From Psammoneis japonica (Eukaryota): DNA of 64,000 nucleotides. Under the pieces are notes generated by a model. The model was not told the origin of the DNA, did no database searches, and saw only the letters and a program-made list of their open reading frames with translations. The stretch covers positions 297,516-361,515 of the forward strand of contig QPGO01000071.1 of NCBI GenBank assembly GCA_008632985.1, read 5' to 3'. The translations under genes were made by a program, and so were the position numbers. This document shows positions 2,792 to 48,590 of this stretch, piece after piece; the first letter of the stretch is position 1; every line of letters begins with the position of its first letter.

Positions 2792-2960
2792 CGATTGCGC
2801 TGCCACTGCTGCTGCTTTGGTTGGCTTGCTCTCCTTGTGTTGATGGGTTCCAACCCAAACTCGTTCCAAATCTCATTGTTTGCCATCCACTGCAGTTTGT
2901 TCTGTTTTCAAACAACTTGCAGCAAGTCTCCGGGCACTGCTGCTCTGCTTGACAACAGCT
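2792..2960 (-). pseudogene. Decayed partial copy of the gene at 8236-9128
   Basis: Aligns with 8581-8745 (TTGATGGGTTCCAA..ACTCGTTCCAAAT..ATCCACTGC.GTTTGTT..TTCAAACAACTT.CA.CAAG); contains frameshifts plus TA->TG and CG->CA/TG changes. Confidence 0.8.
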
Positions 2961-5060: not shown

Positions 5061-6185
5061 TGTGCCAGAGTGTGTCTTTGGCATCCCTCAAGTTGGAAGA
5101 AGGCACACATGTTGTGTGTTGTGGAGCATTGGAGTGATTGGGGAGACTCAAATGACCCATCACGTGGCCCTTTTGCTTGCTCCTTGCAATCAAGGTCTGC
5201 TCCTGACAGGCCTCATGCTCTTTTTGAGTTTCTGACTTGGTCTCTGAGTTGAATGCAACAGAGGAGGATCCAGCTGCAGTGCGGCAGCAGGCAGGATTTG
5301 CAAGTGCTCGTGCGCAGCTTCTAACTTCTTTTTGTCTGTCACTGCTGCTGGCATGCAGATGTGTGTCATCTCCCAAAATGTCTGTTGCTGTTTTTTCTGT
5401 TCCTTGACGCATTGTTGTGACCAGCATGTCTGTGAGTCAATGAGCTGCACTGCTGTTCTTGCTTTTGTTGAGAAAACCGTCGCCAATCTGCGGCCCCGAT
5501 GACCTGATTTTGCCTCCACAAAATTGACGTCTGGGTGGACCAACACATTGCACCAGACTTGCTGTGCAAACAAACGGCAGATGCAGTGCAAATGAGAGTG
5601 AGATGGCATTTTTCGTGACAATGGTGTGCACTCCTGGCATTTTCAAGAGAACAAGCCAGCGAAGTCATGCGCGCAAGAAGTCGACACTGTTGATTGCGAG
5701 GGCAGCACTGGTTTCCTCAAATGAAAGATTCTGCCAGTCTGGACAACGGTCACGGACTTCCAATGGTGCACATCATTCACAGCCACAAGCAGCGGTGTGG
5801 ATGGAGTGCTCTGTTGTCTCTGCGTTGTTTGTGCTGTAATGTAATGGGTCATGGGTCTTGCTTTGCTGTTACATTTTTGTGTGTGTTTGTTTTTCCCTCT
5901 TTTTGCAAAAAAAAATCTGCGAATCTTCTCAAGATCTTTCTGTAGAATTTTTTGGATTTGCCGGCGGGAGGTCCACACAATGGTTTTCGTTGTTCGAACT
6001 CTCCCCCTTCCAGTTGCATTTCTCGGTTCCCTGCAGCTTCCGGCTTGCTGGCTGCTTCAGTGTCGTAAGTCGATGTCGTGTGCTGTCGTAGTTGGCTCTT
6101 TGTGTTTTTTGTTGAAGCAACATCTAAAGAGCTCTAGATTTCTGGTCTTGATTCTCTTTTGCATATTCCCACCGCAAAAGGCGCA

Positions 6186-19250: not shown

Positions 19251-19482
19251 GCCATCCACGCAAAAGCACGCCTGCCCGCCATCCACCTCCCCCTTCCTAC
19301 CGTCCGCACGTGCCACCGGCGCACCCTTCTATCTTCTATCTATCTCTCCGCCAATCAACCCTGCCCTTCTTTCTGCCTGCCTTGAGCCTCTGCATTCCTC
19401 GCTCGTCCTCTTCTTCTAAAAACAAAACAAAGTTGGCTGCTTTGCATTCCATGTTGCAGTTTACAGTGCTCTCTGTTCAGCC

Positions 19483-20172: not shown

Positions 20173-20463
20173 TCCCTGTTTCGAAAGTAGTCGTAGAAGC
20201 GACTTGGAAGCAGGAGACAAGGAGGGTTGCTATTTAGGCTTGCGAGAGCATTTTGCGCTCGAGGAAGATACAAGATGTGTGCGCGTCGTTTTCTGCGCCG
20301 CCGCTCATCATGTCAAAAGTCCCTGTTTCTAAAGCAGTCGTACAGTAGAAGCGACTTGGAAGGAGGGGACAAGGAGGGTTGATTGCCAGAGGCTTGCGCG
20401 AGCAGTTTTGCACTCGAGAAACATGCAAGATGAGTGCACGTTGTTTTCTGCACCGCCGCTCAT
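20173..20463 (+). repeat. About 140-bp tandem duplication straddling a domain edge (20173-20308 / 20320-20463)
   Basis: TCCCTGTTTC.AAAG.AGTCGTA..GAAGCGACTTGGAAG..GACAAGGAGGGTTG..TTTTCTGC.CCGCCGCTCAT present in both copies. Confidence 0.9.
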
Positions 20464-20949
20464 TCTTCTCTTCTCTGCTTCCTCCACTGTGCTGTGTGCG
20501 CCGTCAGCAGCACAGAACAACTCCCACAAGTTGTCAAGAGGCCATGGTGAAGGGTTGGTGTTGTTCCTTCTATGAAAATGTGATGCCTGTGTCAGCACCT
20601 TTGATGCAGCAGAGTTCTTGGACAACCTGTGGCTGCCTGATTGATGCAGTGTTGTGTGGTGCAAGCCGGGATGACGTGGGCGATCTTGGTTTGTGCAAGA
20701 AATCAATGAACCAACTCAACAATTGTGCCAGTCAACCTGGCACCCTCTGTGGATTTTTGGCCAGCTGGCAGCAAAATGCTCTAGACTGGCATCTAAATGG
20801 GAAAAGACAAAGCGAGGCACACTGAACATGTGGTGGTGGAGGAGCATCACACCAGCCGTCAGCTGTTCTGTGCCTTGGCACTTGGCAGGGCCCGCTGTTC
20901 TGTGCCTTGGCAGGGTGCTGTGGTGCAGCGACATGTGCTGCCCAAAGTC

Positions 20950-23750: not shown

Positions 23751-24218
23751 CCTGTTGTTGTTTCTTCCCAGGGGTGGCCATCTCTCTTCATCAAGGAGCC
23801 ACGTAGCCACAAGTCCTGTTTTTGCCTGCTGAGCTTTTTTTGCTTGCCAGCTTGAGTGGAGCTGGGGGGGTGACTTTCCTCCCCATGTCGCAGTGTGTGG
23901 CATTGCCAGAGATGCTTCTCTCCTTGCCATTTGTGTTGTTGGGCCACTCAAAGAGAACTTTTGGCAATCTTGGTGTCATCACCTTGGGTGCCAGGCATGC
24001 TGCCCTCATTGCCAGAGCTGCTGCTTGTCTTGCCCTTGTTTGTCAGCGCTGCTTTGAGTTGTGACACAAGCAATCTCACAGAAGTGTCCCTTGTTTCCTT
24101 CTGAAACAAAGTTTCCAGAAAACAAGCGAGCGACATTGCAAATTTGATTGGTGTGTTTTGTGGTTTCTTTTTGGTGGTTTTTGCTGTGGCTGCCACATCC
24201 AATTACAAAAAAGGCTGG

Positions 24219-24752
24219 TTGTTCTTGTGAGATGGTGTGTCACTTGCATCACTTGCATTGTTTGTTGTTTCTTGGGTGCAACATGGGCTGATTTGCCATT
24301 TTAGACACTGTGGGCTGACACAATTGTGTCTTTTTCATCCAATCCTCCTTCTCCAAGCATGACTGGATCTGCCGGATTGTCTGGACAAGTGCCCTTTGGT
24401 GGTGTGTCTCCAATGGAGCACCCCCCATCTCCTTCTTCTGCTGCAACCATCACCAAGATTCTTGAAGCTGTGCTCATGCTGTCCTTGATTGTCCTTGTGA
24501 AATGGTGTGTCATTTGCATCATTTGCATTTTTTGCTGTTTTTTGGGTGCAACATGGGCTCACTTGCCTTTTTAGACACTGCGGGCTGACACAATTGTGTC
24601 TTCATCTAATCCTCCTTCTCCAAGCATGACTGGATCTTCTGGATTGTCTGGAGTGTCCTTTGATGGTGTGTCTCCAGTGGAGCATCCCCTGTCTCCTTCT
24701 TCTGCTGCAGCCATCACCAAGATTCTTGAAGCTGTGCTCATGCTGTCCTTGA
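24219..24752 (+). repeat. About 270-bp tandem duplication (24219-24488 / 24489-24752)
   Basis: Near-identical units ending CACCAAGATTCTTGAAGCTGTGCTCATGCTGTCCTTGA. Confidence 0.92.
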
Positions 24753-25929
24753 GGGAGTGAGCTCCTTGAACACCACACCAACTTTGGTTCTTGGGTGGAT
24801 GGCTTCATGTTTCTCTTTTTTCCAGCCTGCCTTGCTTCTCTGCATGTGCTGCACATGACAGGAGAAAGAACTTTTCCATGTTCTTGCCATGCTTGAGATG
24901 TGGATGTGGGAGCACATGACACATTGGGGCCACTTTGTGCTCTGTTTGCAGATCACACAGGGCTGCCACACATCTGCTGCAAGCATTGGAATGTGTTGCT
25001 CCAACTTTCATGAGTTGAGGGACTTCAGGCTTGTGGTTTGATGAGACATCTGTTGTTGTCATTTTGCGCAGAGAGTGACTCCTCAATTTTTGGTCAACTG
25101 CATCAAGAGCTTGTGCGTTGTTGAGAATGAGAGTCTTTGATTGTGTGAGGCATGCTTGCTGCCAAATGTCTCCCTTGTCAACTGGATCAGATTCAGTCAA
25201 ACTGATGTGTTGTGAGCATTGAGGCATCAGTCTGGCTGATGTTTTGAGCAGCTGGTTCTTGGTGGCCCTGGAAAACGTTCATTGGAGCATGGGGCATGTT
25301 GTTCTGGCACCATTGGAGAGCCAACATTGTTGCAACAACCTGTTGGTTGCAGGAGGTCCCTTCTGCAGCATCTGCTGGTTTCATGACTTTCTTTGCTCTA
25401 AGCTCCACTGGCTTCCCAAGAAGCTGACTGACCCTTGGCTCCATTTTCACTGGGTCAAGTTGGCCCGACATCATTGTTGGCCAACCACAGCTTGTGGTGA
25501 GTTCTGCATTCTGTGGAACCTTGGGTTTGCACTCTCCAGATTTCCAGACAACTCTTGCCAATTCTTCTGAGTTGACCACAAGATTGATGTTTATTTTGCA
25601 CAAGTTGTGCACGCAGACAGAGGAAGAGGATTTCTCATGGGAGACTGGGCAGCCTGTTCTGCCTTTGTTGCAGTGCAATGAAAAGCAAAGAGAACTGTTG
25701 GAGCATGTTCCAGCTGAGCCATTTCTGTTTGCGGCTGCTGTGGATTGGAATGATCACTCAAGGTCATTAAAAATGAAATCACTGCCCAGCAATGATTTTT
25801 CATCCAGAAATGTTCAACAGGAGATGTTTTTAAAATGGGCCCCATGTGCCAGTGCACAGATCTCAAAAAAGAGGGGAAACAGCAAGACAGAGCAGGGTGC
25901 AGAGTGGATGCAATGCTGGTGACAAGGAT

Positions 25930-27150
25930 GCCACTGACAATCCACCATCATCCTGAAGTGAAATGATGTTCTCTGCAACTGCATGGCCACTCATGGCAGC
26001 ACTGTGTGCAAATGCCCAGTTGTGTGCATCGCCATCAAAAGGTGTGGCTTTTCCCACAAAAAAGAGCTTGTTGCTGCTGACAGGTCTTTGCATTGCATCA
26101 ATGGCGCAGTCACAAGATGCTCCCACTTTTGCCCAACAAGTGCAACCCATCTGAATGCATGGTTCCTCAACCCAGTTCTGAACAACACAATTGACAAGCT
26201 TGGATGAAGCCTTTCCATCAACATTTCATCCAAGTCTGCCAAGACTCCATCCACAGCACAACCACCTGATTGCTGGTTGCATTGACATGTTGATCTGCAA
26301 CAGCTCCACAAACAAAGAGCCCCAAGATGCCAGTGTTTGAAGTTTGGCCAAATGTCTCATCTCAGCACAGCCTCTTGCCAAAATCACTCAATGAGAGGTC
26401 TTCCACATCAAACTCATCAAAATCACATTCAATCACAAGCACCAAAAGGACAAAATGCATCTGTGTGCTTGCAAAACACCTTGATCCCAGGGGCCATTTC
26501 ACAGTCATCAATGGCTTGAGCGCAACTGTTGGGCTGGTCTGGAACAAAAAAAATGGCCTTGTTCTGCAACATCTGCCTGCATGATGCCTGAAACAACCAG
26601 TCTCTGTTTTTCCAAGAAGCTTTTATGAGCACGATGCTGTGGTCTGTTTGTGTCATGGGACAATCAAGAACGGTGTGTCTTCTGGATTCAAAGTCGACAC
26701 CAGTTGGTCATTGAGAAAGTCCCGTCACATTGAATTGACCCACTTGCAGTCATTTGCTGATGGTTCAAAATCAGCACAGTTGCAAATCAAAGAACCATCC
26801 ATGTGGACACCTCTGACACATGATGCTTGACTGTCGAAATGCTGCTTGCTGCATCTCTGTCTGCAATGGGATTCAAAGCTGACACTGGATCACTGTGAAT
26901 CCACTCTCCACCAACATCAATGGGAAAATCAGCCAAGGTGTTGTCTTTTTTCAACCAACTGCTGATGCAATCCAACACCTCGAGAATTGTGTGGGAAAGA
27001 CCTGCTTGTTCCAAGCATCAGGCTGCTGTCAAACCAGCCGCACCTGCTCTGACAACAAGAACATCCATCATGTTTGGTGCCGATGTGACAAACTGCACAG
27101 AGCAGAAAATGTTGTGGCAGAGAAAGCTGCTGCGGTCATGACAGAAATGA
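25930..27150 (-). pseudogene. Flavin-containing amine oxidoreductase pseudogene (hypermutated)
   Basis: DVLVVRAGAAGLTAA*CLEQAG.SHTILEVLDCISSWLKKDNTLADFPIDVGGEWIH (FAD fold), QNWVEEPCIQMGC, LFFVGKA, WAFAHSAAMSG; stops and frameshifts. Confidence 0.85.
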
Positions 27151-29349
27151 CGTGAAAGTGCAATTTTCAAATTTCAGATTGCCGCTGCATTTGCCACATC
27201 ATGATTGCATCATGATGTTGATGACATCAAAGGATTGCCATGTCATGTGGACATCATGTCAATGACGTGCATTGTCAAGGTGCATCTCATGCATCATCGT
27301 CTCTTGCCCCTTGCTCATGCTGTGCCCACTTGCCTCATCAACTCAGCTCAGACCAACAATCTTGCAAATTGTGCTGTGCTCTTTCTGGCAAAGCTGCCTG
27401 TGGTGAGCTCAGTCATGCCCAAATTTTCTTTCTCAATTCACAACCACAGATGGGGCAGAGTGTCAAATTTCACAAAATGTGCACTCTTCTCCACTCACAA
27501 AGTTGGCATGGGAGACAGGCGAGCATTGCGATGCCCTCCTGTGTTCTCACAATGAAGGACATCAACCAGCATCTGTGGAGGCAGTGGCTTGTTTTGCCAC
27601 CTTTGCTGCTTTAAAGTCTGTGTCTTCTTCTTGCACAGTTTCCAGGGGTCTGGCAAGCCATCTTGCGGTGCACGTGTGATGTGAGTTGGTTGCCCGCAGA
27701 AGAGCAGGCACTGTCTCCTTTGACGTTCCCACTCACAACACTCTTGATGAAGAGGAGAGATTTGGAAGAGCTGGGCTTGGCTGCACACATCCTGTGTGGC
27801 TCCACACATGTCCCCCAAGAGGTGCTGCACCAAACATTCTTTGCAGTGCTCCTGTTGTGCTGCTGCCAGCTCAATGGATGAATTGCTGCCAGCAAGGAAG
27901 CTCTTGCCAAGAGAAGATTGGCTGGCAAAGGCTCAATGGTCAACATGTGCACAATTTGTCTGTGAATTGAGGGTGGTGGCTGCTGGTCATGCTGCATGTG
28001 AGCCACGCACAAGACCCTCTCATGAGTTTGGGTGTGCAAGTTGATCCACTGGCCACCATTTCTCAATGTTGTGAATCTTTGTCATCCACAGTGTTCTTGG
28101 ACAAAGTTCTACCTGCAGTGCATTGTGCATCATTGGCGCCATCTTCATGTTCTTTGTGCTGTGAGCATGCCATGTCTTTCCAGCAGCACAGATTCTTGTC
28201 AGCAGGGATAAAGCCAGTGGACCATCATGGCTGCCACAGACATCAAAGCATGTGGCAACACTGTGTTGCTCTGCTGAGAATGTTCCAGTCAAGAGTGAAA
28301 ACCGTGTTTTGGACCAGCATTGTTGTGCCTGCAGCCCACAAACAATGCAGTCCCTTGCTGCTTGTTGTGGCCATGCTGACATCAGCACCTCACCCCTGAG
28401 ATCAGCTGTGGGCTGCCCAGGTGAGTTGCTCCATTTGGGGGGGGGGGGGGGGGCAACAAGCACCCAGATGGCATGAAAAAGCTTCCCAACACATGCTTTC
28501 ACCAACAGGTCATCCATCTCTCCATGCATGTTCAAATGCTCCATGCAGGTCCTCCTCAACTGTCTTCCAAAGTTGCCTCCTGATCATGGTGCTCTCAGCT
28601 CTTAATTTCTCTCAGCACATTGACAATGGGGAGAGCTCAGATCAAGTTGCAAGTGGGCCAGATGATGTCACAATTTGTCTGCTTTGAATCATTGCACATG
28701 CTGAAAAATCCTGTCTGAACTGCAAGATTGGAGCCGCACCCACACAAGATCTTGCTCCCCTGTGCAATGTCATGATCCTTGCACATTTTTTCAGGAAATG
28801 AAGATCCCCAAATGCGCCTCCCAATCAATTTGCTCCTGTGTGGGGTCAAGTCCTCTGCATTCCCCAGGGTTTGATTGACTCCTTGACAGCAACAGGGGGT
28901 GTCACTCCACTGGAGCTAAAATCACTGCATCAGGGCTGAGGTTGTCCTTGCACCATCTGCACCACAGATGGCAGTGCCTTTGATGACACCCCCCTTGCAC
29001 CAGCAGATGAATGTGTGGGGCTGGTGAGCCCTGCACTTGACACACTGCCGCTCATGGAGCAGCAGGAACAAGTGCTGGTGGGCAGACTGGGCCTGGTGCC
29101 ATCATTTTGTGCAAGACCCTTGACATCAGAATGTTGCAGTTGGGTTGGGTGAGCATTTGCTGATGGATTGTGCAGCTGCAGCTGGCAATGCCACTTCCAT
29201 TCATGGCAGCACTTCTGTCACCTTCTTGGGCAAGGAGCAGTTTTCCAGAGCTGAGCAGAGCCATGAAGCACCAGATGGTTGACTTGCCCAATGTCCAAGT
29301 CTTCATCTGAGTTTCTCTGGATCATTCCTGCTGACAGAACAAAGGCTGC

Positions 29350-31418
29350 ATGTTGCAGCTCTGGGTGGGACCTCACACTGCTGGACTGTGACATGAGAGT
29401 TTTTGGGTCATGTGCCGTGTGTCACGCGTGCACATTTCTGCATGTGTTCTTCTGCAAAATTGTCGTGTGCTCCTTGTTTTGCAAAGCCAAAGGCTTTTTG
29501 TTTTCCACCCATTGGCAAAAACAAAAAGTGACTGGGTGTGTTCTTCAATGTCTGTGGAGTGTGCCTTGCCAAGCTGGAAATGATGCACTCCAAGAATGAA
29601 AGAGGAGATGCAGTCACAAAATTGCCTCTTTTTCTGTTGATGACAACCAACACATTCACCACCCTGTCATTTTAGTGCAAAGCTTGTGTGCAGAATTCTG
29701 TGCACAAATGTCACACAGAGGAGCCCCGCCAAGGGCTGGAACACATCGGTCATGGCTTTCTGCCACAGTCTCCAGCATGGGTGAGAAGGAAATCCTGCTT
29801 GTTTTGGCCACTCAAAATTGAAGTGAGACACAGCCACAATGACCAAGATTTGCACTGCATTCAGCCAGTCAACAAAAGCCAATCTTCCTGAGCTTGTTGC
29901 CTTTGTGGCTCCTGTGACCAATGACCACATCTGCTGGGTGGGAGTTGCTCTCTTTGATTGGTTGAGTTGCCTCTGACAGGGCCAGAAGGTCAAAACCCCA
30001 TGTTCGCTGCAAAATTGTGACAGTGATTTCACCCAGGCATCTGCAGCTGACAGCTGACATTGTTTGCTGCTTCAGAAGCTGGAGCAAGCAAACCTTCTGG
30101 AAATGCTCCAGCTCAAGTGTTGTCATTTTGAGCACTTGTTAAAGTTCTGTGCTTGTGTCAGAAGGTGAGCCTCCAGCTTCAATGCCTGGGGTGATGCAGA
30201 TTTCTGATGCTCCCATGCTGCTGCTGGATTTCTTTGGTGTGCACGGGATTTTCTGCAGAAGCAAAGGGTCAAGGACAGCTCATCATTGGCTTCTTGCTGA
30301 TCTGCTGTGCACACTGTTTCCTTGTCAAGAAGAAGGAGGTTGCAGCCAATGGATGTTCTGTTGCTCTCATGACTCCACCTGTGAGAGACAGCCATGCCTT
30401 CATTTGGTTGATGTGGTGTTTGCTGCACTTTTTTTTTTTAGAATGGAAATTCTGTCACAATGTTTGGCCAGCATGTCTGCTTCTGCCAAGCAAATCACTT
30501 CATTGCAACACATTGTCAAAGTCAAAAACTGCCTCTGCAACATTCAGTGTGTGCTGGCTCACTCCAAATGTCCAAGCTGGTGGCCAACAAATTTGTTGAT
30601 CTTTTTGGGGCCAGTCATGTAGAAAAGAGTGCACACAACTCAGTTCTCCCAATTTTTTGCATCAACAAAAAATTGTGCCCCCAGAAGATTCTTCTTTTTT
30701 GGTGTGCATTCTTTGCACAACAGAGAGAGAGCAGACATCCTTTCAAAAAAATCAAGCACAGCAAAAGAAATGGAAAATCTGCTGTGCCCACATTCCCATT
30801 GTTTTGCCCCCAAAAAACAACTCCAAAAAAAGAGAGCTTTCTCTCTTTTTGTCTGCACCCTCCAAAGAACAAAAAAGGCTGCTGGTTGTTGTCCAATGAA
30901 AGAAGATGCAAAAAGGTGAGAAAAGCATGAGCTCAGATGAGAATTTTTTCTTGCACAAAAAGTGCCATGACAGAAAACAGACAGATCCAATGTTGTCACA
31001 CCCCCTCGTAAGTCACACGGGGATGAAAACACACTGGCACCACTTTTTTGTTCTTGTGAGCATGTGTCAAAATGGAAAGTCTGCAGCTTCACAAAACAGG
31101 GAGCACAAAACAATTCTGCAGAAGAGCGCATGCAGAAATGTGTGTGTGCAACATGTGACACACAACAGAAAAAACATTCATGTCACATCATGCCAGCACA
31201 TGTGCCCCCCCTCCTGGGGCTGCAGTGTGTCCTTCAAACACTGAATGAGAAAACACTTGGCCAGCAGTTTTTGTTTTCACAAATGGTGCTGTGACAAAAA
31301 GCCTTTGACTTCACAAAACAGTGAGTGTGAAACAATTTTGCAGAAGAATGTGTGCATGTGACATGCAGCACATTGTCAAAAAAGCTCTCATGTCCTCACA
31401 GTCAAGCAGTGGCTGGCC
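29350..31418. mobile_element. Possible non-autonomous TIR element: a + copy of the dispersed repeat (29350-29720) facing two - copies (31030-31210, 31245-31418)
   Basis: Reverse complement of 31245-31418 reads CACTGCTTGACTGTGAGGACATGAGAGCTTTTT..TTCTTCTGCAAAATTG..TCAAAGGCTTTTTG, matching 29375-29500; no TSD identified. Confidence 0.45.
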
Positions 31419-31543
31419 ATGAGGTGCTCTGTTCAGACCAAGGCGGTGGAGCACATTGAACAGCCAGCCAAATGCCACAATCATCAGCATTCCCCAGAAA
31501 GTCATGGCTTGTTCACAGCAGGAAGTGTGACTTTGGTGAAAAC

Positions 31544-31861
31544 AGCTGTTTGTTGAGCACCACACCTGCACCAAATCTGAGGGCTGGCTGGCACTTGAAG
31601 GCAGGCAAAAAGCATGGCTTGCATGCAGGACTGACAGCCCTGGTGGGGGCTGGGCAAACTCATCATGAGCACAGTTTTGGGGTGCTCAGAGGCACACTGC
31701 AAAGCAACAAGAGCTGTTTGTTGAGTGTTGCAACTGTGTGCATCAGATCCAACAGCTGGCATTTGAAGGCAGCCAACAAGTGCAGCTCACACACAGGTCT
31801 GGCAGCCCTGGTGGGGGTGCCAGACACACTCATCATGAGTGCTTTGGGGTGCTCAGAGGCA
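31544..31861 (+). repeat. About 168-bp tandem duplication
   Basis: AGCTGTTTGTTGAG..GCTGGCA.TTGAAGGCAG..CAGCCCTGGTGGGGG..ACTCATCATGAG..GGGGTGCTCAGAGGCA occurs twice. Confidence 0.85.
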
Positions 31862-31957
31862 TCAAAAATGACACCAGCAAAGTGCAGGAAAATTGCACAA
31901 AAAGAATCATGAGCCACTGAAGTCATGCCGCCACTCAAATCGATGGCCCATCCTTTG

Positions 31958-32843
31958 AGGTGGTGTGGGTGCAAAGTGGGCCAGGTTCTGCACACACAGA
32001 GCTCAGTGTGTTGTCTGCACAAATTGCCAAAGTCAGCTTGCCAAATCAAATCTGCCAGATGATGGAAACTTGAACATGTTTCACATGACAAAGTGTTCAG
32101 AGTGCTCATTTGCACTCCCATTGACTTGTTTGTGGAGAGAAACAACATGTTTTCTTGCACTCGTAATTTGCAGCATGGCTCCACAAAACTTGAGCATTAT
32201 GATTTTGGCACCTTTCTTGTCAGACTCAGTGTGTGTGATTTGTGCAAAGGTGGCGTGGGTTCAAAAGTGGGCCAAATTCTGCACACGTGGAGCTTGGCAT
32301 GTTTTCCACACAAATCGGCAAAGAGTCAGCTCACCAACTTCGACCCTCTCCATGATGATGGAAGCTTGGATGTTTCGCACATTCAAGCATTTGGGCCACT
32401 CATTTGCACTCCCCTTGACTTGCTTGTGCAGAGAGAAACAACATGTTTTCATGCGTTCGTCATTTGTTGTGGCCACGCAAAACTCAAACGTCGCAATTTT
32501 GGCACCTTTCTGATTGGGCTCGGTGTGTGTCTTTCAAAAAGATGTGAAAACATGTTGTTTCTCTCCACGAACAAGTCAAGGGGAGTCCAAACAAGCACTC
32601 CAAACACTTTGTCATGTGAATTGTCCAAGTTTCCATCGTCTTGGAGAGGGTCGAAGTTGGCAACAAGCTGACTTTGGTGATTTGTGCAAAGGTGGCACAG
32701 GTGCAGAAGTGGGCCAGATTCTTGGCACGCAGAGCTTGGCATGTTTTCCACACAAATTGCCAAAGTTAGCTCACCCTCTCCAGGACAATGGACAGAAACT
32801 TGGGCATGCCAACAAGCTCTGGCCCACTTTTGCACCCGTGTCA
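31958..32843. repeat. Foldback-like array of a 290-bp unit (direct, direct, inverted partial, direct partial, short inverted)
   Basis: Units at about 31958-32250 and 32248-32530 (+), 32547-32676 (-), 32677-32790 (+), 32821-32843 (-); shared AAGTGGGCCA, CATTTGCACTCCC.TTGACTTG, GAGAGAAACAACATGTTTTC. Confidence 0.8.
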
Positions 32844-33199
32844 TCATCATCTAATCTGAATCTGAACCCCCCCCCCCTTCCCAAAAACGCACTGATTGAC
32901 AGACTCCTCTTGCAGTACAAATTCTACACACGGTGCACAAGATTCACACTTCTTCGGCCAGGCACCTTGAACCTTGAACCTTTGCTGCGAGCGAGACTGA
33001 TGAAGAAGCCCCGCGCGCCCCCAGCCAGCATCCGCCCCATGAACGTCGAACATCCGTTGCATGTGGTTGCCTCAGTCTCATCTCTACCGGTAGAGCCCTA
33101 CTCTAGCTAGTAGTAGAGGGCTCTGGTCTCTGGTTCTACGACTACAGTGCGGCAGTCTTCTGTAATAACATTGATTTCCTTGTGATAAAATCGACAATC

Positions 33200-38899: not shown

Positions 38900-38999
38900 G
38901 TTCCCGACAGCCTGCCTATTTTGCTTCGCTTGATTTTATGTTATTGACGTTCCGTTTGGTCTCTATGGTAAGTAGTGAAACATAGAAACCGCTTGACCA

Positions 39000-40810
39000 C
39001 TTGGGTTTTGGAAGCACTCACAACAGTGGTGCCTTGACACTGAAAATGACACTTGACAATGAAAATGAGAGGAATGCATGGAGCAAATCCAGACATCATC
39101 ATCGTCCATTGTCGCGAGGAGTCGCGACCGGTGTTGGTGTTTCAGTGCGTGTGCTGCGTCAATGACCCTTTCCGATCTTTGGACAAAAATAGAAGAATTG
39201 TGACTACTCACTCCGCGCCCGCGCTGGGCTGCTGCTGGCTGGGCTGCTGGGCCGCTCTGCCCTGCTCGTCGCGCGACCAGAGGGCACGTCCCACAACAAC
39301 CCCCTGCCATTGTTGGGGGAGCTCCACCAGTGCTGTCAGAGTCTGTTCCATGCCCCCCACGCTTCTTGGAAAATGAAGCATCTCCAGCCACTCCAGCTCC
39401 CTTGTCCACTGCACAGCAGCTGCAGCACCAGCATCCAACACAGCAGCTGCAGCGGCGCCTTTGGTGCGCCGCTGTTGCAGCACAAGCTCTTTGCCCGAAG
39501 CAGTGCTTCCCATGCAAACCACCCTGCCTGCACTGTGTTGCTCTGACTCTTTCAAGCTCAGTGTCTGTTTTGAATTAAGCAAGAACAACCAAGTTGAGGC
39601 ACAGGCCATCTTGCACTTCCTCCGTCTTGTTCTACACACAACCTTTTTGTTTTTTCTGGGACACCAGCAGCAGCTCCTCCTGAGTTGATGCCTGGCCAGC
39701 AGAGAGGAGGATTTGAGAGTGGTCTGCAAAACCCCTCCAAAGACATCTGCTGGAGAACTCCACCACAATTTTACAAGCTTGGCAAGGCCAGAGCAGATTT
39801 CAGCTGGGCCCTCCTGCAAAACCCACGCGCACAGTCAAAGCAAAAGCAGCCGACTCTTCCTGCAAGCCCCCCCCCCCAGCCACCCCAAGCAGCATGGAGA
39901 AACAACTCCAGAAATTTTTCTCATGGATGACCCAGATGTGCCCCCCCCCCTGGCATGGCAAGGCACTTCTTCTTGCTGACACTCTGTGCTGGCAGCAGCA
40001 ACCCCAGCTCTGTGCAAGATCGCTGCCACCCGGCATGTGTTGGGAGGGCAGAGCAATGTTGGGGAGGAAACCATGTGTGTTGCTCTCTGGATTTTACACC
40101 ACTCACCACACCATGCTGCAGCTGCTGGCTGCCTCCCCCCCCTTGCAACAAAGATGCGCGCCATGCCACGAGCACATCGCACACTGTGGGCTGCCCCTTG
40201 ATGGCCCCTTTTGCCTCAATTTTTTGTCACACTCACACAAGAGCTGCAGCTCCAATCTCTGTGAAAAAGGGGGAAAATGTGCTGCCTTGTTGTTTGAAAA
40301 GAATCATGTTGCCACCAGCACATCACAAGGGGTCTTTTCCTGTGTGGTGGTGTGTGTCCCCCCCCCCCCCGCCACCACTCCAGGAGCTCAAGGGATGCCC
40401 CCTTGCTCTTTCAATTCAGTCATTCAATTCATCATTTGCTGCCTTTGTGTGTGAAAATTCAGTGAAAAAACAAGGGACAGCCAAGAGATTTCCAAGAGCT
40501 GGGTGATGCTGCAAAATCCAGAAAGGTGGCTGGGCATGTGTGTTTGTTCCTTGCTCAATTTTGCCACTCTGCATGCTTTCTGTTCTCTCTCATGCATTGT
40601 TGACTTTCTCTTTTCAATCACTTGTGGCTGACATGGGATGGAAATCTGGCTTGCCATCCCAAGGTCAAACAGGGCATGTCATCAATGCTGGGTGCCATTG
40701 TCCACAGGCTCAGACCACTGTCTGGTGTCATGCCTTTTTGGGACATCGAGAGAAAATGGCTTCCATCCAAAAGCCTGTTCTACATTGTTTGCACTCCCAT
40801 GACTGCAACA
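39000..40810. other. TpA/CpG-depleted hypermutated domain 5 (between the two GT paralogs)
   Basis: TA near absent; several poly-C tracts; ends about 30 bp from the paralog B stop codon. Confidence 0.85.
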
Positions 40811-40842
40811 ATTTACATTGAAACTAGGAAGTTACACATCTG

Positions 40843-43041: not shown

Positions 43042-43479
43042 GTTTTCTGAACCTTACACAGCTTTAATTCTGGTGAAGGACTTCTGATGCTGCTTGTGCT
43101 CCTTAGAAGTACTGTACAGTGGCAATCGATTGTTCTGGTAAGACAAAACACAAAACACTAAACACTTGAACCTGAAAAGAGAACAGAGAGCGCCTATGGC
43201 GAGGTGATTGCCGTTCGCATTCGTTCAACTCAATACCGACCACGACCAAAAACTGCCACCTACCTACAGCCCGCGCGCAGAGTTACTGTAGTCGATCGTT
43301 TTGCCGTCCAAGAAAAAAGACTCGACTGTGTAGGACGGAACGGAATTCGTTGTCAAAGATTTATGTATGTTTAGGTCTCTCTAGTAGTCGTGCTCTCTGA
43401 ATATATTCGGCACATATACAAGAGTGGGGGACATGCTGTACACAGCACGAGTCGTACATTGGTTAGCGGAAAAAGCCGT

Positions 43480-46400
43480 GTCATGAACCTCGGTCGTCCA
43501 AGATTGCCAGTCACCACCCACAGACCCCCATGGTCTGCAGAAGTCCCACAACACCAGTGGCAGCATGTCCAGCATGCAGTTGAGGACTGCAGCAAATCAT
43601 TTGTGGGAGCATGACACAGTGCAACTTTCTGCCAGCAGCACCAGTTGGCGAGACCTTGGTGAACGACATCCAGAGACCAGCCCTGTTTGCCCTCTCAAGA
43701 AAACTTTTTGGGGCTGTCCATCCATTGTTGTCCAATGGAGTCTGCAGCTCAAAACTGCAAAGTGAGTGCTCTGACATGCTCACACATGATTGACTCACTT
43801 CATGGACACTCTCAGTTTTCTTCCGCAGTCTACAAGGACACCATGTGTGGAGTGAAACGAGAAGCAGCTGACGGAAAGTCAAAGTGCACAAGAACATCAC
43901 ACACCATGCAGTGCAAGTCATGCACTCTGGCTTGCATTGCATGTGCAAAATGGAGCCCACCAAAATGCAAAGGACAAAGGATGCAAGCACAACATTTGGT
44001 TGCCATGCTTTCTGAGCGCAGCGAGTCTTGTTGGCAGCAGAAAATTGACTGCAAACAAAAGAAACAAAAAACAATCACATGTGTAAAAGAGAAACCAAAC
44101 AATGTCACCTTTGCTGTGAAGCAAGACTGCAAAACACCAGGAACAATGTTCAAAACCAATCTCTTCTTCCTTGCCTCAATGGCGGTCACCACTTGTCTCA
44201 CTTTTCTGCGCCAGCAATGGCCGCTGAGATCTGTCCGCAGCAACCGGCAGCTGAAGACAAAGTTGCTGCTTTTGCCAAGCTCCTGGCACCAAGATCCCAC
44301 TGTTTTGCATGGGCACCATTGTTTGTTCAAAACAAACAAACAAGCTGGGGTCTGAGGACCCAGCAGCCACCGGGGTTTGGCCCTGAAGGTTCCTGGAAAA
44401 GATGTGTCCCAGCAGCCGTGCGAATGAGCTTTCACCAGCACCAAAAGCATGGATTTGTCCAAATTTTAATGTTTGGCAAAACACTGACAAGACACTCGCA
44501 TCAGTGTTGCAATGCCATTGTTTTTGTGCAATCAATGTTTTTCATTGTGACATGAATGAGTTGCAATGCAGCACCAGTGGATGATTTTTGCCAAAATTTT
44601 TAAAGATTCACACACCATTGCTGTTTGGAGGTTAATGTGAAATGTTTCTGCTGCATTTCACAGTGGTGGTCTGCTCACACAAAATTCTCTGTGACATGAG
44701 TGCTGGCATGCAGATGGCATTGAGCATGGTCTCTGCATGAAAACTTTTGTGACACATGTGTCTGTGAAGACTTGGACACAGACAAAAAATCATTTGAACA
44801 TTCTCACTCTGTTTGAACACACAAAAGCCAGAGTGCATGAGTGTTTTTTAATTGACAGCCTCAACACACGAAGCTTGTGCAAATTGTGCTCAAAAGGGAG
44901 TGCCGTTTTGTGTGTCACCTGGGACTGGAACACATCAAAAGCTTGGGCAATTCAGTGCTGCACCATGATTGGGGATTTCAAGCCTTTTTCCTTTGCCCAG
45001 AGAACCAGGGCAGCTTGCCCAGGGACAAAGGTGAATGGTTCCTCCAGCAGAGGCTGCTGCAAGCCAATGCCCCCAGGGAAAAAAGGCCAAGCTTTGAATG
45101 GAGTTGTCAAGCTGGTGTTCAGATCTGTGCATGAGATGACTCAAGCACTTCACTGTGGACAAACCCAAGGGAGTGGAGGGAGGCAAAGCAAGGAGATGAT
45201 GCAAGACACCCAGGAAGTGCAATGGATGGTTGCCAAGGGCAAACAAGTTCCACAGGGAGCCAGTTGTGGACATCAAGCAGGGCATTCTTCAACAAACAAC
45301 TTGGGAAGATTTGCACTGGAAGATTGTGGCAAACTGCAAGAAGCAACAGGACAATGGGGGAACAATGAGTCAGACAACAAGGGCAAGCATGTGGTGAAGA
45401 ACTGTGCTGAGATGCACCAACTGGAGTTGACTCCTGTTCAGCAGCAGGTGAAAACCACACATTGGCACTTGCATTTGCCCATGATTTACAATGGGTTGAA
45501 GCACTGCACCCCAAAACAGCAAATTGAGAATGCCAGCACACCAGTCAATTTTGTTGGTCTGTTTCCAGCAAAGCACAATGGAGTGACTCAGTGTCGTCAA
45601 TTTGTTGTGTGGCACCACATTTGTTGGGTTGTCATGTTCTTGATTTGAAACAACAGACATCCATTGGAAATTGCAGACATTTGTTTGTTGCCCAACTGCG
45701 CTAATTTTTTGAATGTGGGGGTGATTTTTGATGAATGTGACTGGTTGGTCAAAAAGCAAATTTGCATGATTGCACTCACACATGTTGGCTTTTTGTGCAG
45801 ACTTCAGTCTGGTCATGAGCCATTTGGAGAATTCACAGATTTGCCCCCCAATGTGTTCTGCTGTCAGCAGATCAGTTTCATCCAATGGCAGAATGTCTTC
45901 TCCCTCAACCAGGTGTTGCAATTGTCTGCTGTCAAGCATTCTCTCCTGGGCCCTTTGTCTGGGAGCATCAGATTCATTGCAAACAAGTTTGATGACCAGA
46001 GGGGCAAGGGCATGATGAGCCAATCAAATGCTTCTGATGCCTTTCCCCCAGTTGTGCCCCAGAAATGATGCCAGGCAGTCCCCAGCTTGCTGGCATGAAA
46101 AACCAGGAGATCCAGAGCCTGGCCACTTTGCAGATGCTCTGGCCTCAGCATTTGGAGTTGTTGATCCAGAAAATCCTAAAGGAGCAACTGTTTCAACCTT
46201 CTGTGTGAGGCCAAACTGAAATGTGGTTTGGCAGGATTTTTCTCTCTGGGGCCTGGGTCCAGAGTTTGCATGAAAGGATCTACAATGTGGGAGTGACAGA
46301 TGCAAGCTGCTGTCCACCCTGACAAATCTCCTGCAACGGCTTTGGAAACATCTGGGTGAACCAACAGATTGTGACAATGGATCTTAAGTTTGTCAGAAAA

Positions 46401-48590
46401 GCAATGCCCACAACCACCTTGACAACCCCCTTTTTGCCAAGAGGCTGCACACAACCACCTCCTTGAATGGGGTTTGCAGTTCTCCAAGTGTTGCTGCCAA
46501 CTTGGGTTTGCAGCTCAAACTCTTTTCAGGTGCGCCATGCAAAACATCGGGCAAAATGACATCTCAGTCACACAAAGCCAAAAAAAGCCAGAGAAAAAGC
46601 CCAAAAAGAAACTCAAAAGAAGAAGTTGGGCAAAAAGCTTGGGGGCCCAGGGCATGTGAAGCATGCACAGTGATGGTCGATGCACGGCAGATTTACGATG
46701 GACAGTGGTTCACTTGGAGCCTCAAAGCTCGCTGGTTGGCAAGCAGCTCCCAAACATTGATGCTTGGCTGCTTGACTTTTGCTGCATGTGAGAAGCACAT
46801 GTCAATGCTTGCTCATGCACAAACACATGCATTGTGCATGTTTTTTGTGCTGTCATGGTGTTTTCCTTGCTGCATGTTTGAATGACAGATCTGTGTGTGC
46901 ATTTCTTGGTGTCACCTTGTCATGGATGTCTGGCGCGCACCATCTTCAATGCGGGGTCTCAATGAAAGTCCCCTGCCAATGGAAGAGGGGGCCAATCAGA
47001 TGCACACTGCAATGCTCAAAGCTTTCTGAAAAAAACATGTCGTTGTTGTTTGATGATTGCTGCAACATGGACGCAGCCACCTTGGTTGATCCATCTTAGA
47101 TGGACACGCCACAATCTGAGTGGCGGTGCTCGGACAAAGACACCACAAAAATTGTCAAACTCCTCCGGTCTTTTTTAATCTCATTCAACATTGTCAGTGC
47201 TGACTTGCACAAGACAGTTCTGAGAGAAGGAATTGCAGCAAAATGGAGAAGTGCTGCTGCCCCCGCAAGCTTCCCAACACCATGGGTTTTCAAACTCAGG
47301 CTCAAAAGCCAGCCCAGAAAAAAGCAAAGGAGAAAGCTTTTTCTGGAGTTGCCAAGTTGTCAAGGAAAAATTTGCCATGGTTTTTACAATGTCACTGCAT
47401 CGTCAGCAGAGTTGCAAATTTTGACACTGCCAAACAGTCACGTCACTCAGGAAAAGGTTGTTGAGTGCAAAAGCAGGTGCAAAACAAGGAACCACCTTCA
47501 AAAAGGGCCATGATCCAAGCTGCCCAAAATCCATGTGTCATGGCAAGGACATGAGCACCAAGTGAAACGTGGCCATCCACCACTTCTTTGTTGCCAGCAG
47601 TGCAAGAAAGAACACCAAAAAAATGCAGGGGCTTCCCACTTGACCTCCTTGAGAATGGCAAAGTTTGTTTCATGCACTTCATTTGTCTTTCTGACAACAT
47701 GCAGATGACAAGTCCCAATCTCCTTCGCAATGCTTGCCGCGGCACGGCGGCCATTGTCGTCAACGCAGGGAGGTGTGGGATCGACTGTGGATCATTCCGG
47801 TGAGGGTTGTTGGCGATGACAAGTTTGTTGGGTTGTCTGGGCAGGACAAGAACAGAATGAGAGACACTTTTGCTGCTCTCTCGGCCTTGTCGAATGACAT
47901 GACTCATCACAAAATGAGCACAGCCTGCTGCACTTTCTGAACACTGATGAAAGAAAAAATGTTTGAAGACATTCGTTGTTTTTGTGGTGGCCAGCAATTC
48001 TGTTTTCGATTGGCACAGAGGAAGCGGGAGCAGCTTTGGCACAACAGGCCACAAGGTTGTGCCTTCGCGGAAACGGTGTTGGTGACAACAAGGACAAGTT
48101 CCACTTTCCCTGCATTGTGCTGACAGGTCTTGGACACAGCAAGTCAGTGGACAATGAAGCTGATTCCATGCTTCTGCAGCTCCAAGACTTCGTCAGCAAG
48201 ATGCCATCTGTTTACAAAGACAAGGTGCCATTGTGACCTGCGGAGTCTCAAGCTCGACGGCGGCCAACATCCCACTGGTGGCAGATGATGAGAAGGATGA
48301 CTGCAGCCAGGAAGAGGCAGTGCCCACTCTCGAATGGATGCCACCGCGTGACCTGAACCTCCAGATTTTCTGCTTTAGTCTTGTGGGGATGTCACCGAGG
48401 ATGAACCAGTCATTTGTGGTCATCATCACAGTCCTTGTGGGCACATCTGCATTGCAACAGCTGGAGCAGGAGTTTGTTTTTACAGTGGAGGCGATCATCC
48501 TGCGCATTGTGTGCCGTTCTCTCACGACGAGTCTTCAACATTCTTGCTTCGGTTGGGGATTTTAAGGGATGAATGTCATCCAGCCATCCC
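43480..48590. other. TpA/CpG-depleted hypermutated domain 6
   Basis: TA near absent; right-hand 1 kb keeps CpG but lacks TA. Confidence 0.9.

What the first reader, a model, noticed from the sequence alone, without database searches (positions are those of the whole stretch)
47701..48560. TA loss is uncoupled from CpG loss: outer zones are TA-free but CpG-rich
Seen: 47701-48180 has no TA but about 18 CG. The same pattern occurs at 5461-5820, at about 39090-39300 and in the outer repeat unit 32250-32680, while domain cores lack both. Inference: the TA process is faster or spreads further than methyl-CpG decay, so it is not a by-product of it. Domains look concentric, as if spreading outward.
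Basis: partly seen in the sequence, partly recalled or inferred. Interest (0 to 1): 0.72.

Follow-up and report, generated by a model that had tools for sequence, protein, structure and literature searches.

The report
TpA-erasing hypermutation in diatom silent DNA
In this diatom's DNA, blocks between genes have had nearly every TA and most CG steps rewritten to TG/CA, and at the block rims TA is already gone while CG is only half lost, which points to a fast, TA-specific mutation process that seems to be undescribed.

Summary
47701-48180 has 0 TA (16.8 expected) and exactly 18 CG. The window is diatom nuclear DNA. Six intergenic blocks, 26.4 kb of 64 kb, have TA o/e 0.04, CG 0.20 and TG/CA 1.8, yet their base composition matches the rest.

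The missing TA plus CG are matched by extra TG+CA: 1998 against 1900 in cores, 202 against 187 in rims. Both steps were therefore converted by transitions. Spacers outside the blocks are normal.

At 11 of 12 edges CG survives better than TA in the outermost 300 bp (TA 0.10, CG 0.45 of normal). Just outside, both are normal. So "CpG-rich" overstates it: rims are half depleted, and CG loss starts at the same border as TA loss. "Faster" is supported; "spreads further" is not.

The few surviving TA are 59% YTAR and 1% RTAY, so TA removal reads flanking bases.

Best reading: slow methyl-CpG decay plus a faster, separate TpA-directed A:T>G:C reaction, both confined to the same blocks. The enzyme is unknown. 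Eight literature searches found no such process described.

The parts
2710..5836 (.). Block 1, TA-low (strongly CG-low 2799-5477); right rim 5478-5836 has 0 TA and 16 CG
   Evidence: HMM; rim counts; six-frame Pfam scan found nothing
9356..11010 (.). Block 2, TA-low (CG-low 9548-10842); rims 9356-9547 and 10843-11010 have 0 TA and 4 and 6 CG; flanked by a 33-bp direct repeat at 9231-9263 and 11163-11195
17266..19297 (.). Block 3, TA-low (CG-low 17279-19000); right rim 19001-19297 has 1 TA and 12 CG; the left edge is the one edge where CG is not better kept than TA
20347..33084 (.). Block 4, 12.7 kb TA-low (CG-low 20503-32253); right rim 32254-33084 has 4 TA and 28 CG
25926..27071 (-). Dead flavin amine-oxidase-like gene inside block 4: 382 codons in one frame, 10 in-frame TGA, no Tyr codon left; a modest CG-retaining island lies at its 5' end (26632-27724, 18 CG)
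   Evidence: (best E 5.6e-28; 694 proteins at E<=0.001)
31957..32775 (.). Local repeat family (units of about 290 bp, direct and inverted): the inner copy is nearly CG-free and the outer copies keep CG; at the same sites copies show TG against CA
38984..40780 (.). Block 5, TA-low (CG-low 39497-40861); left rim 38984-39496 has 2 TA and 25 CG and abuts the 5' end of ORF 36713-38935(-)
43465..48562 (.). Block 6, TA-low (CG-low 43496-47725)
   Evidence: no Pfam family in six frames
47726..48562 (.). Right rim of block 6, the flagged zone: 3 TA (28.4 expected) and 33 CG (55.2 expected); TA-free to 48212, then a fringe with 3 TA
   Evidence: covered by one contig of run X1 at ordinary depth, about 61
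44008..45341 (.). Multicopy repeat inside block 6 (summed contig depth 429-1111 against about 60 for single-copy DNA)
   Evidence: table 2; ORF 44695-45648(+) has no relatives
2790..2970 (+). Decayed copy, at the rim of block 1, of part of the unmutated neighbour 8579-8755 (78% nucleotide identity, 89% purine/pyrimidine identity)

Best explanation
The window is diatom nuclear DNA. Six blocks between genes consist of decayed repeats, single-copy DNA and at least one dead host gene. They have undergone a block-confined transition hypermutation that rewrites both self-complementary pyrimidine-purine steps, CpG and TpA, into TpG/CpA. Because the two conversions balance, base composition stays unchanged.

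I read this as two reactions working in the same compartment, probably silent methylated chromatin bounded by the neighbouring transcription units.
(1) Ordinary methyl-CpG deamination. It is slow and graded, leaving about 13% of CG in cores and 45-60% in the outer 100-840 bp.
(2) A separate TpA-directed A:T>G:C reaction. It is at least about five times more effective per site, so TA sits at its floor (5-10% of normal) right up to the border. It reads the tetranucleotide: RTAY is erased and YTAR is spared. Per strand the order is TAT>TAC>TAG>TAA.

The flagged 47701-48560 is the outer shell of block 6, where reaction 2 is complete and reaction 1 is half done.

Shown: composition, bookkeeping, borders, flanking-base bias, a dead gene, and normal spacers outside.
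Inferred: methylation, silent chromatin, that the two reactions are separate, and their relative speed.
The chemistry of reaction 2 is unknown. Candidates are adenine deamination at TpA, or a modified thymine at TpA that mispairs with G.
For: Blocks: TA o/e 0.04, CG 0.20 and TG/CA 1.79/1.78 in 26,447 bp. Outside long ORFs have TA 0.50 and CG 1.01. Outside spacers have TA 0.67 and CG 0.99. G+C is 0.49 inside, and 0.51 and 0.46 outside.

Bookkeeping: the TA deficit plus the CG deficit is 808+1189=1998 in cores, against a TG+CA excess of 1900. In rims it is 103+100=202 against 187.

Simulation: applying TA>TG/CA and CG>TG/CA to the window's own outside DNA reproduces the inside dinucleotides (RMSD 0.085) and trinucleotides (r=0.966). 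This beats TA>TT/AA (0.103; 0.954) and TA>TC/GA (0.148; 0.916).

Both strands are affected: local (TG-CA)/(TG+CA) lies between -0.26 and +0.28.

Direction of change: the dead amine-oxidase gene (E 5.6e-28) keeps one frame over 382 codons with 10 TGA stops. At 6 conserved Tyr columns it reads TGA, GTG, TGG, GTG, TTT and TGC, and a conserved Arg reads TGG. The rim copy 2790-2970, compared with its unmutated partner, shows by eye 3 TA>TG, 1 TA>TC and 4 CG>TG/CA.

Edges. In the outermost 300 bp inside, TA is 11 against 114.9 expected and CG 106 against 236.7. In the next 300 bp, TA is 9 against 120.4 and CG 64 against 229.5. In the first 300 bp outside, TA is 163 against 148 and CG 188 against 192.4.

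Specificity: of the 75 TA left inside, 44 are YTAR and 1 is RTAY. Outside the figures are 243 and 370 of 1431. The flanks of TG/CA inside, the source of new TA, are 22.6% and 25.1% (P=5e-9 to 5e-16).

Reality of the sequence: contigs of run X1, at word depth 44-69, reproduce blocks 4-6 with few differences.

Of the 16 listed contig differences inside blocks, 7 are CG<>TG/CA and 2 are TA<>TG. This is compatible with a process that is still running.
Against: No methylation, chromatin or enzyme data exist for this organism here, and no genome is held. Only 12 edges could be tested.

The edges were defined on TA, so the sharpness of the TA step is partly built in.

The shared outer border fits a coupled process as well as two independent ones.

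Six of 12 TA edges are abrupt (under 50 bp). That suits inserted elements as well as chromatin borders.

The Tyr-column test is small: 3 of 6 read TGN, and the homologues are only about 28% identical.

The paralogue comparison assumes that the outside copy is ancestral, and it includes one transversion.

Run X1 comes from the same sample as the best holder of the window, so it is not independent.

In cores TA and CG survival are similar (about 0.09 and 0.13 of normal). The rate ratio therefore rests on the rims alone and on the assumption that both clocks started together there.
Confidence: 0.6

Rival explanations
1. One coupled process. TA loss is collateral damage from the handling of methyl-CpG deamination: T:G mismatches trigger excision, and error-prone resynthesis mutates A:T pairs at TpA in the patch. 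TA loss then saturates wherever any CpG deamination and repair goes on.
For: TA loss and CG loss share the same outer border: CG is at 0.45 of normal in the last 300 bp inside and 0.98 in the first 300 bp outside. Every TA-low zone also has some CG loss (141 against 233 expected in rims). Recalled knowledge, not tested here: in immunoglobulin somatic hypermutation, mismatch processing with polymerase eta mutates A:T pairs at WA motifs around a deaminated C.
Against: AA, the other WA step, is not depleted: o/e is 1.29 inside and 1.18 outside. TA is already at its floor where only about 40-55% of CG is lost. Surviving TA show a strict flanking rule, with RTAY erased and YTAR spared. That looks like an enzyme's site preference and is not a reported polymerase-eta pattern, as far as I recall.
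Confidence: 0.15
2. The blocks are insertions of mobile elements that were already TA-free and CG-poor when they landed. The composition was inherited from master copies or acquired at the RNA stage by editing. The CG-richer rims are structural ends of the elements, not a gradient formed in place.
For: Six of 12 TA edges are abrupt. Parts of blocks are multicopy: depth is 429-1111 at 44008-45341 and 572 at 32002-32668, against about 60. A 33-bp direct repeat flanks block 2. Weak homologies between blocks appear in the purine/pyrimidine alphabet (4662-5089 with 29348-29760).
Against: Block 4 holds a dead cellular-type gene with TGN at former Tyr codons. The rim of block 1 holds a mutated copy of a neighbouring gene fragment. 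Four edges are graded. TG and CA are symmetric, so there is no sense-strand bias as RNA editing would give. Most of the blocks, including the flagged rim, sit at single-copy depth at 90% likeness or more. No transposon protein domain was found in six-frame scans of blocks 1, 4 and 6 and of block 3 up to 18921.
Confidence: 0.12
3. This is a variant of the best explanation on the cause of the gradient. Blocks grow outward with time. Rims are younger, TA acts as the fast clock and CG as the slow clock. The alternative is a static block whose methylation level falls towards the border.
For: A three-tier order is seen at 4 of 12 edges: core, then TA-free with half the CG, then a fringe with TA 9 against 35.6 expected and CG 39 against 67.6. 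CG rises stepwise over the last 300-900 bp. An ex-gene inside block 4 keeps more CG at its 5' end, as if silenced later. In the repeat family at 31957-32775 the inner copy has lost the CG that the outer copies keep.
Against: A static fall in methylation level near the borders predicts the same CG gradient. TA is saturated, so it carries no age signal except in the fringes. Six edges are abrupt, with no fringe. One sequence gives no time axis.
Confidence: 0.35
4. No special process. The blocks are either neutral DNA at this genome's ordinary mutational equilibrium, or a sequencing or base-calling artefact at modified bases.
For: The blocks hold no recognisable live genes. Base modifications can cause systematic miscalls on some platforms (recalled).
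Against: 15.1 kb of spacers, UTRs and small genes outside the blocks have TA o/e 0.67 and CG 0.99, and no TA-free run over 193 bp. Contigs at even word depth of 44-69, from a run that assembles into 31-mer contigs, reproduce the blocks. The borders are sharp.
Confidence: 0.03

Closest known systems
Repeat-induced point mutation (RIP) of ascomycete fungi
   Same: It is a hypermutation by transitions, confined to particular stretches of DNA. It destroys genes by point changes without indels and kills repeats along with adjacent unique DNA. Relatives of the fungal RID enzyme (DNMT4) occur in many diatoms: 8 pennate and 23 centric of 60 species, function unknown (PMC9998398, passages read).
   Different: RIP changes only C:G to T:A, mainly CpA>TpA. 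It therefore creates TpA and makes the DNA AT-rich (recalled; the RIPCAL abstract seen in the listing says CpA is preferred). Here TpA is destroyed, A:T>G:C changes are needed, and G+C does not move. Dependence on duplication is not shown: much of the blocks is single copy at 90% likeness or more.
Methyl-CpG decay of silenced DNA (vertebrate genomes; DNMT5-methylated transposons of Cryptococcus and algae)
   Same: CG>TG/CA loss is confined to silenced repeats, is graded, and comes with TG/CA excess. It accounts for the CG half of the pattern. Diatom transposons are known to be CpG-methylated and marked by H3K9me2/3 and H3K27me3 in Phaeodactylum (PMC4504042 and PMC9998398, passages read).
   Different: It says nothing about TpA. 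No known CpG-methylation system removes TA. Methylation of the residual CpGs was not tested here.
A-to-I hyperediting of retroelement RNA (ADAR type), or TadA/ADAT-type adenine deamination
   Same: The A>G outcome, with a 5' U/T next to the edited A, is the favoured context for ADAR, for fungal TAD2/TAD3 mRNA editing and for TadA (recalled).
   Different: Here the change is symmetric on both strands. It acts on a dead cellular gene and on single-copy DNA in place. The order by the base 3' of the A is TAT>TAC>TAG>TAA (tallied by hand; class test). This does not fit the 3' G preference of ADAR or the UAG preference of fungal editing (recalled).
Thymine modification at TpA (base J of kinetoplastids; 5-hydroxymethyluracil of dinoflagellates)
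   Same: These are protist enzymes that pick thymines followed by A, in silent or repetitive DNA (recalled). The context is equivalent, because RTA on one strand is TAY on the other.
   Different: No such base is reported for diatoms in the papers found. The 12 papers listed of 15 holding both '5-hydroxymethyluracil' and 'diatom' are about dinoflagellates (listing only). These bases are not known to erase TpA from genomes.

Membership tests
Fungal-type RIP | Only C:G>T:A transitions, so that G+C falls | tested here: not met
   G+C is 0.492 inside against 0.506 and 0.455 outside. The loss of 808+103 TA needs A:T>G:C changes.
Fungal-type RIP | CpA>TpA preference: TpA rises | tested here: not met
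   TA o/e is 0.04 inside against 0.50-0.67 outside, and CA is in excess at 1.78.
Fungal-type RIP | Acts on duplicated DNA and stops near the end of the duplication | tested here: inconclusive
   Some segments are multicopy, while others, including the flagged rim, are at single-copy depth at 90% likeness or more. The tandem gene copies 36708-38897 and 40841-43033 (79% identical) are unmutated. No genome is held to search for old copies.
Fungal-type RIP | Needs a RID/DNMT4-type enzyme and a sexual (premeiotic) stage | not testable with these tools
   No genome or proteome of the organism is held.
Methyl-CpG decay | CG depletion matched by TG/CA excess, confined to silenced DNA | tested here: met
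   CG o/e is 0.13 in cores. The deficits are matched by the TG+CA excess. Repeat copies show TG against CA at the same sites (read by eye).
Methyl-CpG decay | Remaining CpGs are methylated, less so where CG is better kept | not testable with these tools
   Only contigs of two runs from one sample were available. There is no bisulfite or native long-read signal.
RNA-level A-to-I hyperediting fixed by retrotransposition | A>G on the sense strand only (strand asymmetry), in retrocopies | tested here: not met
   TG and CA are equal (2727 against 2513 in cores), and the local skew is within +/-0.28. No reverse-transcriptase domain was found in six-frame scans of blocks 1, 4 and 6 and of block 3 up to 18921.
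Selective avoidance of short palindromes (as in phage restriction avoidance) | Sites are removed by silent changes while genes stay intact | tested here: not met
   The one recognisable gene in a block has 10 in-frame stops and has lost all Tyr codons.

The most novel reading that the evidence does not exclude
Diatoms of this lineage have a second, DNA-level genome-defence mutator besides methyl-CpG decay. An enzyme recruited to silent chromatin attacks the TpA step, either as a DNA adenine deaminase or as a thymine modifier that causes T>C. It prefers RTAY sites. It erases TA within a short time after a stretch is silenced, destroying every Tyr codon and all TATA-like sequence, while the matching CG decay keeps G+C constant. 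This would be a GC-neutral counterpart of RIP with a chemistry not known from any natural genome defence.
Probability: 0.35. Interest if true: 0.92.

Novelty: new variant of a known kind. Interest (0 to 1): 0.8.

Why it matters
Known ways in which eukaryotes mutate silenced DNA all start from cytosine: methyl-CpG decay, RIP and APOBEC-type editing. A block-confined process that removes TpA by A:T>G:C, with its own tetranucleotide preference and a higher efficiency than CpG decay, would be a new mutational force in a major group of marine primary producers.

It would explain how such DNA can be inactivated without becoming AT-rich. It would give a two-speed clock for dating silencing. It would point to a natural enzyme acting on A or T in double-stranded DNA, which is of interest for base editing.

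The rim pattern examined here is the piece of evidence that separates the TA reaction from CpG decay in degree, though not in reach.

Tried and rejected
1. No whole genome is held for the window. Genome-wide edge plots, searches for old repeat copies and searches for candidate enzymes could not be done.

2. Run search: three runs of one sample and study were listed, and two of them hold the stretch. No RNA holder is listed. Run X2 is filed 'DNA?'. It carries a GT..AG joint that skips 105 nt (35998>36104), and its listed pieces lie on ORFs, so it looks RNA-like. It has no cover in the bins inside blocks 4-6.

3. Pfam scans with stops read as X:
- Blocks 4, 6 and 1, and block 3 up to 18921, were scanned in six frames. 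The only hits were two weak amine-oxidase/NAD_binding_8 matches in block 4.
- Blocks 2 and 5 were scanned only as long ORFs (nothing found).

4. ORFs 44695-45648(+) and 47443-48192(-), the latter inside the flagged zone, have no relatives by word-seeded search. Long ORFs in blocks are a by-product of missing TAA/TAG.

5. The upstream regions of the two tandem gene copies are not detectably homologous even in the purine/pyrimidine alphabet (score 162.5 against a null of 144.9 +/- 9.1, maximum 172.5). They gave no direct mutated-versus-unmutated comparison.

6. There are no tRNA genes and no Rfam families that could act as border elements.

7. Other diatom and protist contigs: 29 loci of 3 kb or more, taken from the 69 fetched, total 322 kb and show no TA+CG-free block. 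These are gene-adjacent metagenome contigs, so this is only a control for run lengths. It does not show that other diatoms lack the process.

8. Sunlight damage in unrepaired chromatin was considered. YCGR is only mildly under-represented among surviving CG (58 of 327 against 535 of 2223), and TC/CC are hardly changed. I rejected it as the main cause.

9. 6mA was considered. The paper read places eukaryotic 6mA at ApT in active genes, with no ApT depletion (PMC12695648, passages). A preprint on transposon-borne Dam-like methylases does not mention diatoms or TpA.

10. Earlier findings of this scan: there are none for this genome. The hits by words concern phages and are unrelated.

11. Literature: eight full-text searches found no report of TpA loss in diatom or other eukaryotic silenced DNA. 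I saw listings and abstracts only, apart from the four papers named above. Supplements were not opened.
Full report
**What the window is.** Long ORFs outside the odd zones encode ordinary eukaryotic proteins. These include an ERGIC/thioredoxin protein, a plastid-type sigma-70 factor, an FGGY kinase, a TraB-family protein and a class 3 lipase. The ERGIC/thioredoxin protein has 1087 relatives at E<=1e-20. The best are 70-82% identical, and every named one is from a diatom. The window is therefore gene-dense diatom nuclear DNA. No whole genome is held.

**The observation.**
- Over the whole window TA o/e is 0.36, CG 0.67, CA 1.43 and TG 1.41.
- The deficit is concentrated. There are 41 TA-free runs of 250 bp or more, up to 1155 bp.
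- A two-state HMM on TA gives six TA-low blocks: 2710-5836, 9356-11010, 17266-19297, 20347-33084, 38984-40780 and 43465-48562.
- Inside them (26,447 bp) TA o/e is 0.04, CG 0.20 and TG/CA 1.79/1.78. Outside long ORFs have TA 0.50 and CG 1.01. The 15.1 kb of outside spacers, UTRs and small genes have TA 0.67 and CG 0.99.
- The longest TA-free run outside the blocks is 193 bp.
- In 322 kb of contigs from other diatoms and protists (the 29 loci of 3 kb or more among 69 fetched) there are 5 TA-free runs of 250-271 bp. All are CG-rich, and no block lacks both TA and CG.
Only 39090-39300 (2 TA, 19 CG) is weak.

**The sequence is real.** Contigs of run X1 lie on blocks 4-6 at word depths of 44-69, with few differences. 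For example, one 4328-base contig covers 47429-50000 with 6 other letters. X1 is from the same sample as the best holder, so it is not independent. Its even-depth 31-mer contigs still speak against a base-calling artefact.

**What happened to the DNA.**
- Base composition inside equals that outside, so the loss of CG (which lowers G+C) is balanced by a change that raises it.
- The bookkeeping closes. In cores the TA deficit (808) plus the CG deficit (1189) is 1998, against a TG+CA excess of 1900. In the rims it is 103+100=202 against 187.
- I applied TA>TG/CA and CG>TG/CA to the window's own outside DNA. This reproduces the inside dinucleotides (RMSD 0.085) and trinucleotides (r=0.966). It beats TA>TT/AA (0.103; 0.954) and TA>TC/GA (0.148; 0.916). 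Unmutated outside DNA correlates only at 0.717.
- TG and CA are nearly equal everywhere, with local skew between -0.26 and +0.28. Both strands are hit, which argues against a one-strand RNA-level origin.

**Direction of change.**
- Block 4 holds a dead flavin amine-oxidase-like gene at 25926-27071(-). A phmmer search of 1.84 billion representatives gives 694 proteins at E<=0.001, best 5.6e-28, and both ends match in one frame.
- The gene has 10 in-frame stops, all TGA, and no Tyr codon.
- Against 15 homologues, the 6 conserved Tyr columns read TGA, GTG, TGG, GTG, TTT and TGC. A conserved Arg reads TGG. This sample is small and the homologues are only about 28% identical.
- At the rim of block 1, 2790-2970 is a decayed copy of 8579-8755 in an unmutated neighbour. 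Identity is 78% by nucleotide and 89% in the purine/pyrimidine alphabet, so most differences are transitions. By eye the alignment shows 3 TA>TG, 1 TA>TC and 4 CG>TG/CA, if the outside copy is taken as ancestral.
- In the local repeat family at 31957-32775 the inner copy has lost the CG that outer copies keep. Copies also show TG against CA at the same sites, as expected from independent decay of one CG (read by eye).

**What the blocks are made of.**
- Six-frame Pfam scans with stops read as X covered blocks 4, 6 and 1, and block 3 up to 18921. They find no transposon protein, only the weak amine-oxidase match. Blocks 2 and 5 were scanned only as long ORFs.
- Parts are multicopy. Summed contig depth is 429-1111 at 44008-45341 and 572 at 32002-32668, against about 60 elsewhere. 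Most of the rest, including the flagged rim, is at single-copy depth at 90% likeness or more.
- The long ORFs in the blocks have no relatives. They are a by-product of the missing TAA and TAG.
- The blocks fill the spaces between genes and end 50-650 bp from the neighbouring ORFs.

**The edges, which are the finding proper.**
- An HMM on CG gives strongly CG-low segments 2799-5477, 9548-10842, 17279-19000, 20503-32253, 39497-40861 and 43496-47725. The TA-low border lies beyond them at 11 of 12 edges, by +13 to +837 bp, with one at -81.
- The zones between the two borders total 3473 bp. They hold 10 TA (112 expected) and 141 CG (233 expected).
- A model-free count gives the following.

| Zone relative to each TA edge | TA observed / expected | CG observed / expected |
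|---|---|---|
| Outermost 300 bp inside | 11 / 114.9 (0.10) | 106 / 236.7 (0.45) |
| Next 300 bp inward | 9 / 120.4 (0.07) | 64 / 229.5 (0.28) |
| First 300 bp outside | 163 / 148.0 (1.10) | 188 / 192.4 (0.98) |

- CG survives better than TA at 11 of 12 edges (p=0.006). The exception is the left edge of block 3.

Three things follow from these counts.
1. The rims are not CpG-rich. They are half depleted.
2. CG loss begins at the same outer border as TA loss, so TA loss does not reach further. It is simply complete where CG loss is partial.
3. TA survival in rims (about 0.09) equals that in cores (about 0.09), so TA is at a floor everywhere, while CG is graded. From the rims alone, -ln(0.09)/-ln(0.61) is about 5. 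This is a lower bound on the ratio of the two per-site efficiencies, if both clocks started together.

Six TA edges are abrupt, under 50 bp. Four have a fringe of 175-350 bp with TA 9 against 35.6 expected and CG 39 against 67.6. The edges were defined on TA, so the sharp TA step is partly built in. The CG figures on either side are not.

**A new constraint on the TA reaction.** Of the 75 TA left inside the blocks, 44 are YTAR (TTAA, CTAA/TTAG, CTAG) and 1 is RTAY. Outside, the figures are 243 and 370 of 1431. The flanks of TG/CA inside, the pool from which new TA would arise, are 22.6% YTAR-type and 25.1% RTAY-type (P between 5e-9 and 5e-16). Pooled by strand, from the core table and tallied by hand, susceptibility runs TAT>TAC>TAG>TAA. 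Surviving CG show only a mild bias. The TA reaction therefore reads at least a tetranucleotide, which looks like an enzyme's site preference.

**Not mere relaxed selection.** Non-coding DNA outside the blocks is normal, and the borders are sharp.

**Is it still running?** Forty of 136 contig differences were listed. Of the 16 inside blocks, 7 are CG<>TG/CA and 2 are TA<>TG. Of the 24 outside, 6 and 4 are of these kinds. Per remaining CG site that is a clear excess inside. The differences cannot be polarised, and they may come from alleles or from repeat copies.

**Explanation.** The CG half is what methyl-CpG deamination does to silenced DNA. Diatom transposons are methylated and carry repressive histone marks in Phaeodactylum (PMC9998398 and PMC4504042, passages read).

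The TA half has no known counterpart. I think the most likely reading (0.6) is a separate, faster, TpA-directed A:T>G:C reaction confined to the same blocks. Its chemistry is open. One candidate is adenine deamination at T-A-Y. The other is a modified thymine at R-T-A that mispairs. The two are the same site seen from the two strands.

**Rivals.**
- A coupled model, in which error-prone repair of T:G mismatches mutates TA nearby (0.15). The shared border favours it. Unchanged AA, the flanking-base rule and the completeness of TA loss disfavour it.
- Inserted elements that were born TA-free (0.12). Abrupt edges, multicopy parts and a 33-bp flanking repeat at block 2 favour it. The dead gene, the mutated paralogue, the graded edges and strand symmetry disfavour it.
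- Artefact or neutral equilibrium (0.03).
- Whether the CG gradient reflects outward growth with time (0.35) or a static fall of methylation near the border cannot be decided from one sequence.

**Comparison with what is known.** Fungal RIP is the closest in logic, but it fails the membership tests made here: it creates TpA, lowers G+C and uses only C>T. DNMT4, a relative of the RIP enzyme RID, occurs in 31 of 60 diatom species with unknown function (PMC9998398). This is a lead, not evidence. ADAR-type or TadA-type editing shares the 5' T but not the strand symmetry or the 3' preference. 6mA in eukaryotes sits at ApT in active genes and does not deplete ApT (PMC12695648, passages). Eight full-text searches found no report of TpA erasure in silenced DNA of diatoms or other eukaryotes. 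For most papers I saw only listings and abstracts, and I opened no supplements.

**Verdict.** The underlying phenomenon, a block-confined, GC-neutral erasure of TpA with RTAY preference alongside CpG decay, appears undescribed. It is worth a genome-wide and experimental follow-up.

Noticed in passing
window 9231-9263 and 11163-11195: A CG-rich 33-bp direct repeat (32 of 33 identical) brackets block 2. It lies about 90-150 bp outside the block's TA edges. It could be a footprint of insertion or a shared promoter motif of the two divergent neighbouring genes.
   Followed up: partly
window 36708-38897 and 40841-43033: Tandem duplicate of a 2.2-kb gene with no Pfam family, 79% identical (90% in the purine/pyrimidine alphabet). 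Both copies are unmutated. Each is followed upstream by a TA-low block, and the two upstream regions are not homologous.
   Followed up: partly
window 25926-27071 (-): The dead amine-oxidase-like gene keeps one reading frame over 382 codons despite 10 TGA stops. It decayed by point changes with no net frameshift, as after a burst of substitutions rather than slow neutral decay.
   Followed up: yes
blocks, all six: TTAA alone makes up 16 of the 70 TA left in the cores (5% of TA outside). TTAA is also the target site of piggyBac-type transposons, so some surviving TA might be young target-site duplications rather than resistant sites.
   Followed up: no
window 14846-15834: A 72-bp tandem repeat of about 8 copies (87% matches) lies inside the 1077-codon ORF 13410-16643(+). 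It encodes a 24-residue Pro/Ser/Thr-rich repeat. It is not mutated, although it is repeated.
   Followed up: no
window 54053-54827 and 55163-55898: Internal duplication (85% identity) within ORF 54043-56073(-), plus short GC-rich repeats at 54854-55040. The composition is normal.
   Followed up: no
window 35999-36103: A contig of run X2 skips 105 nt with GT..AG ends. This is an intron, and it shows that X2 behaves like an RNA library although it is filed as 'DNA?'.
   Followed up: partly
window 18922: A single N sits inside block 3.
   Followed up: no
window 19298-20346: A 1-kb island of normal composition separates blocks 3 and 4. It holds a short tandem duplication (20173-20309 and 20320-20464). 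What protects it is unknown.
   Followed up: no
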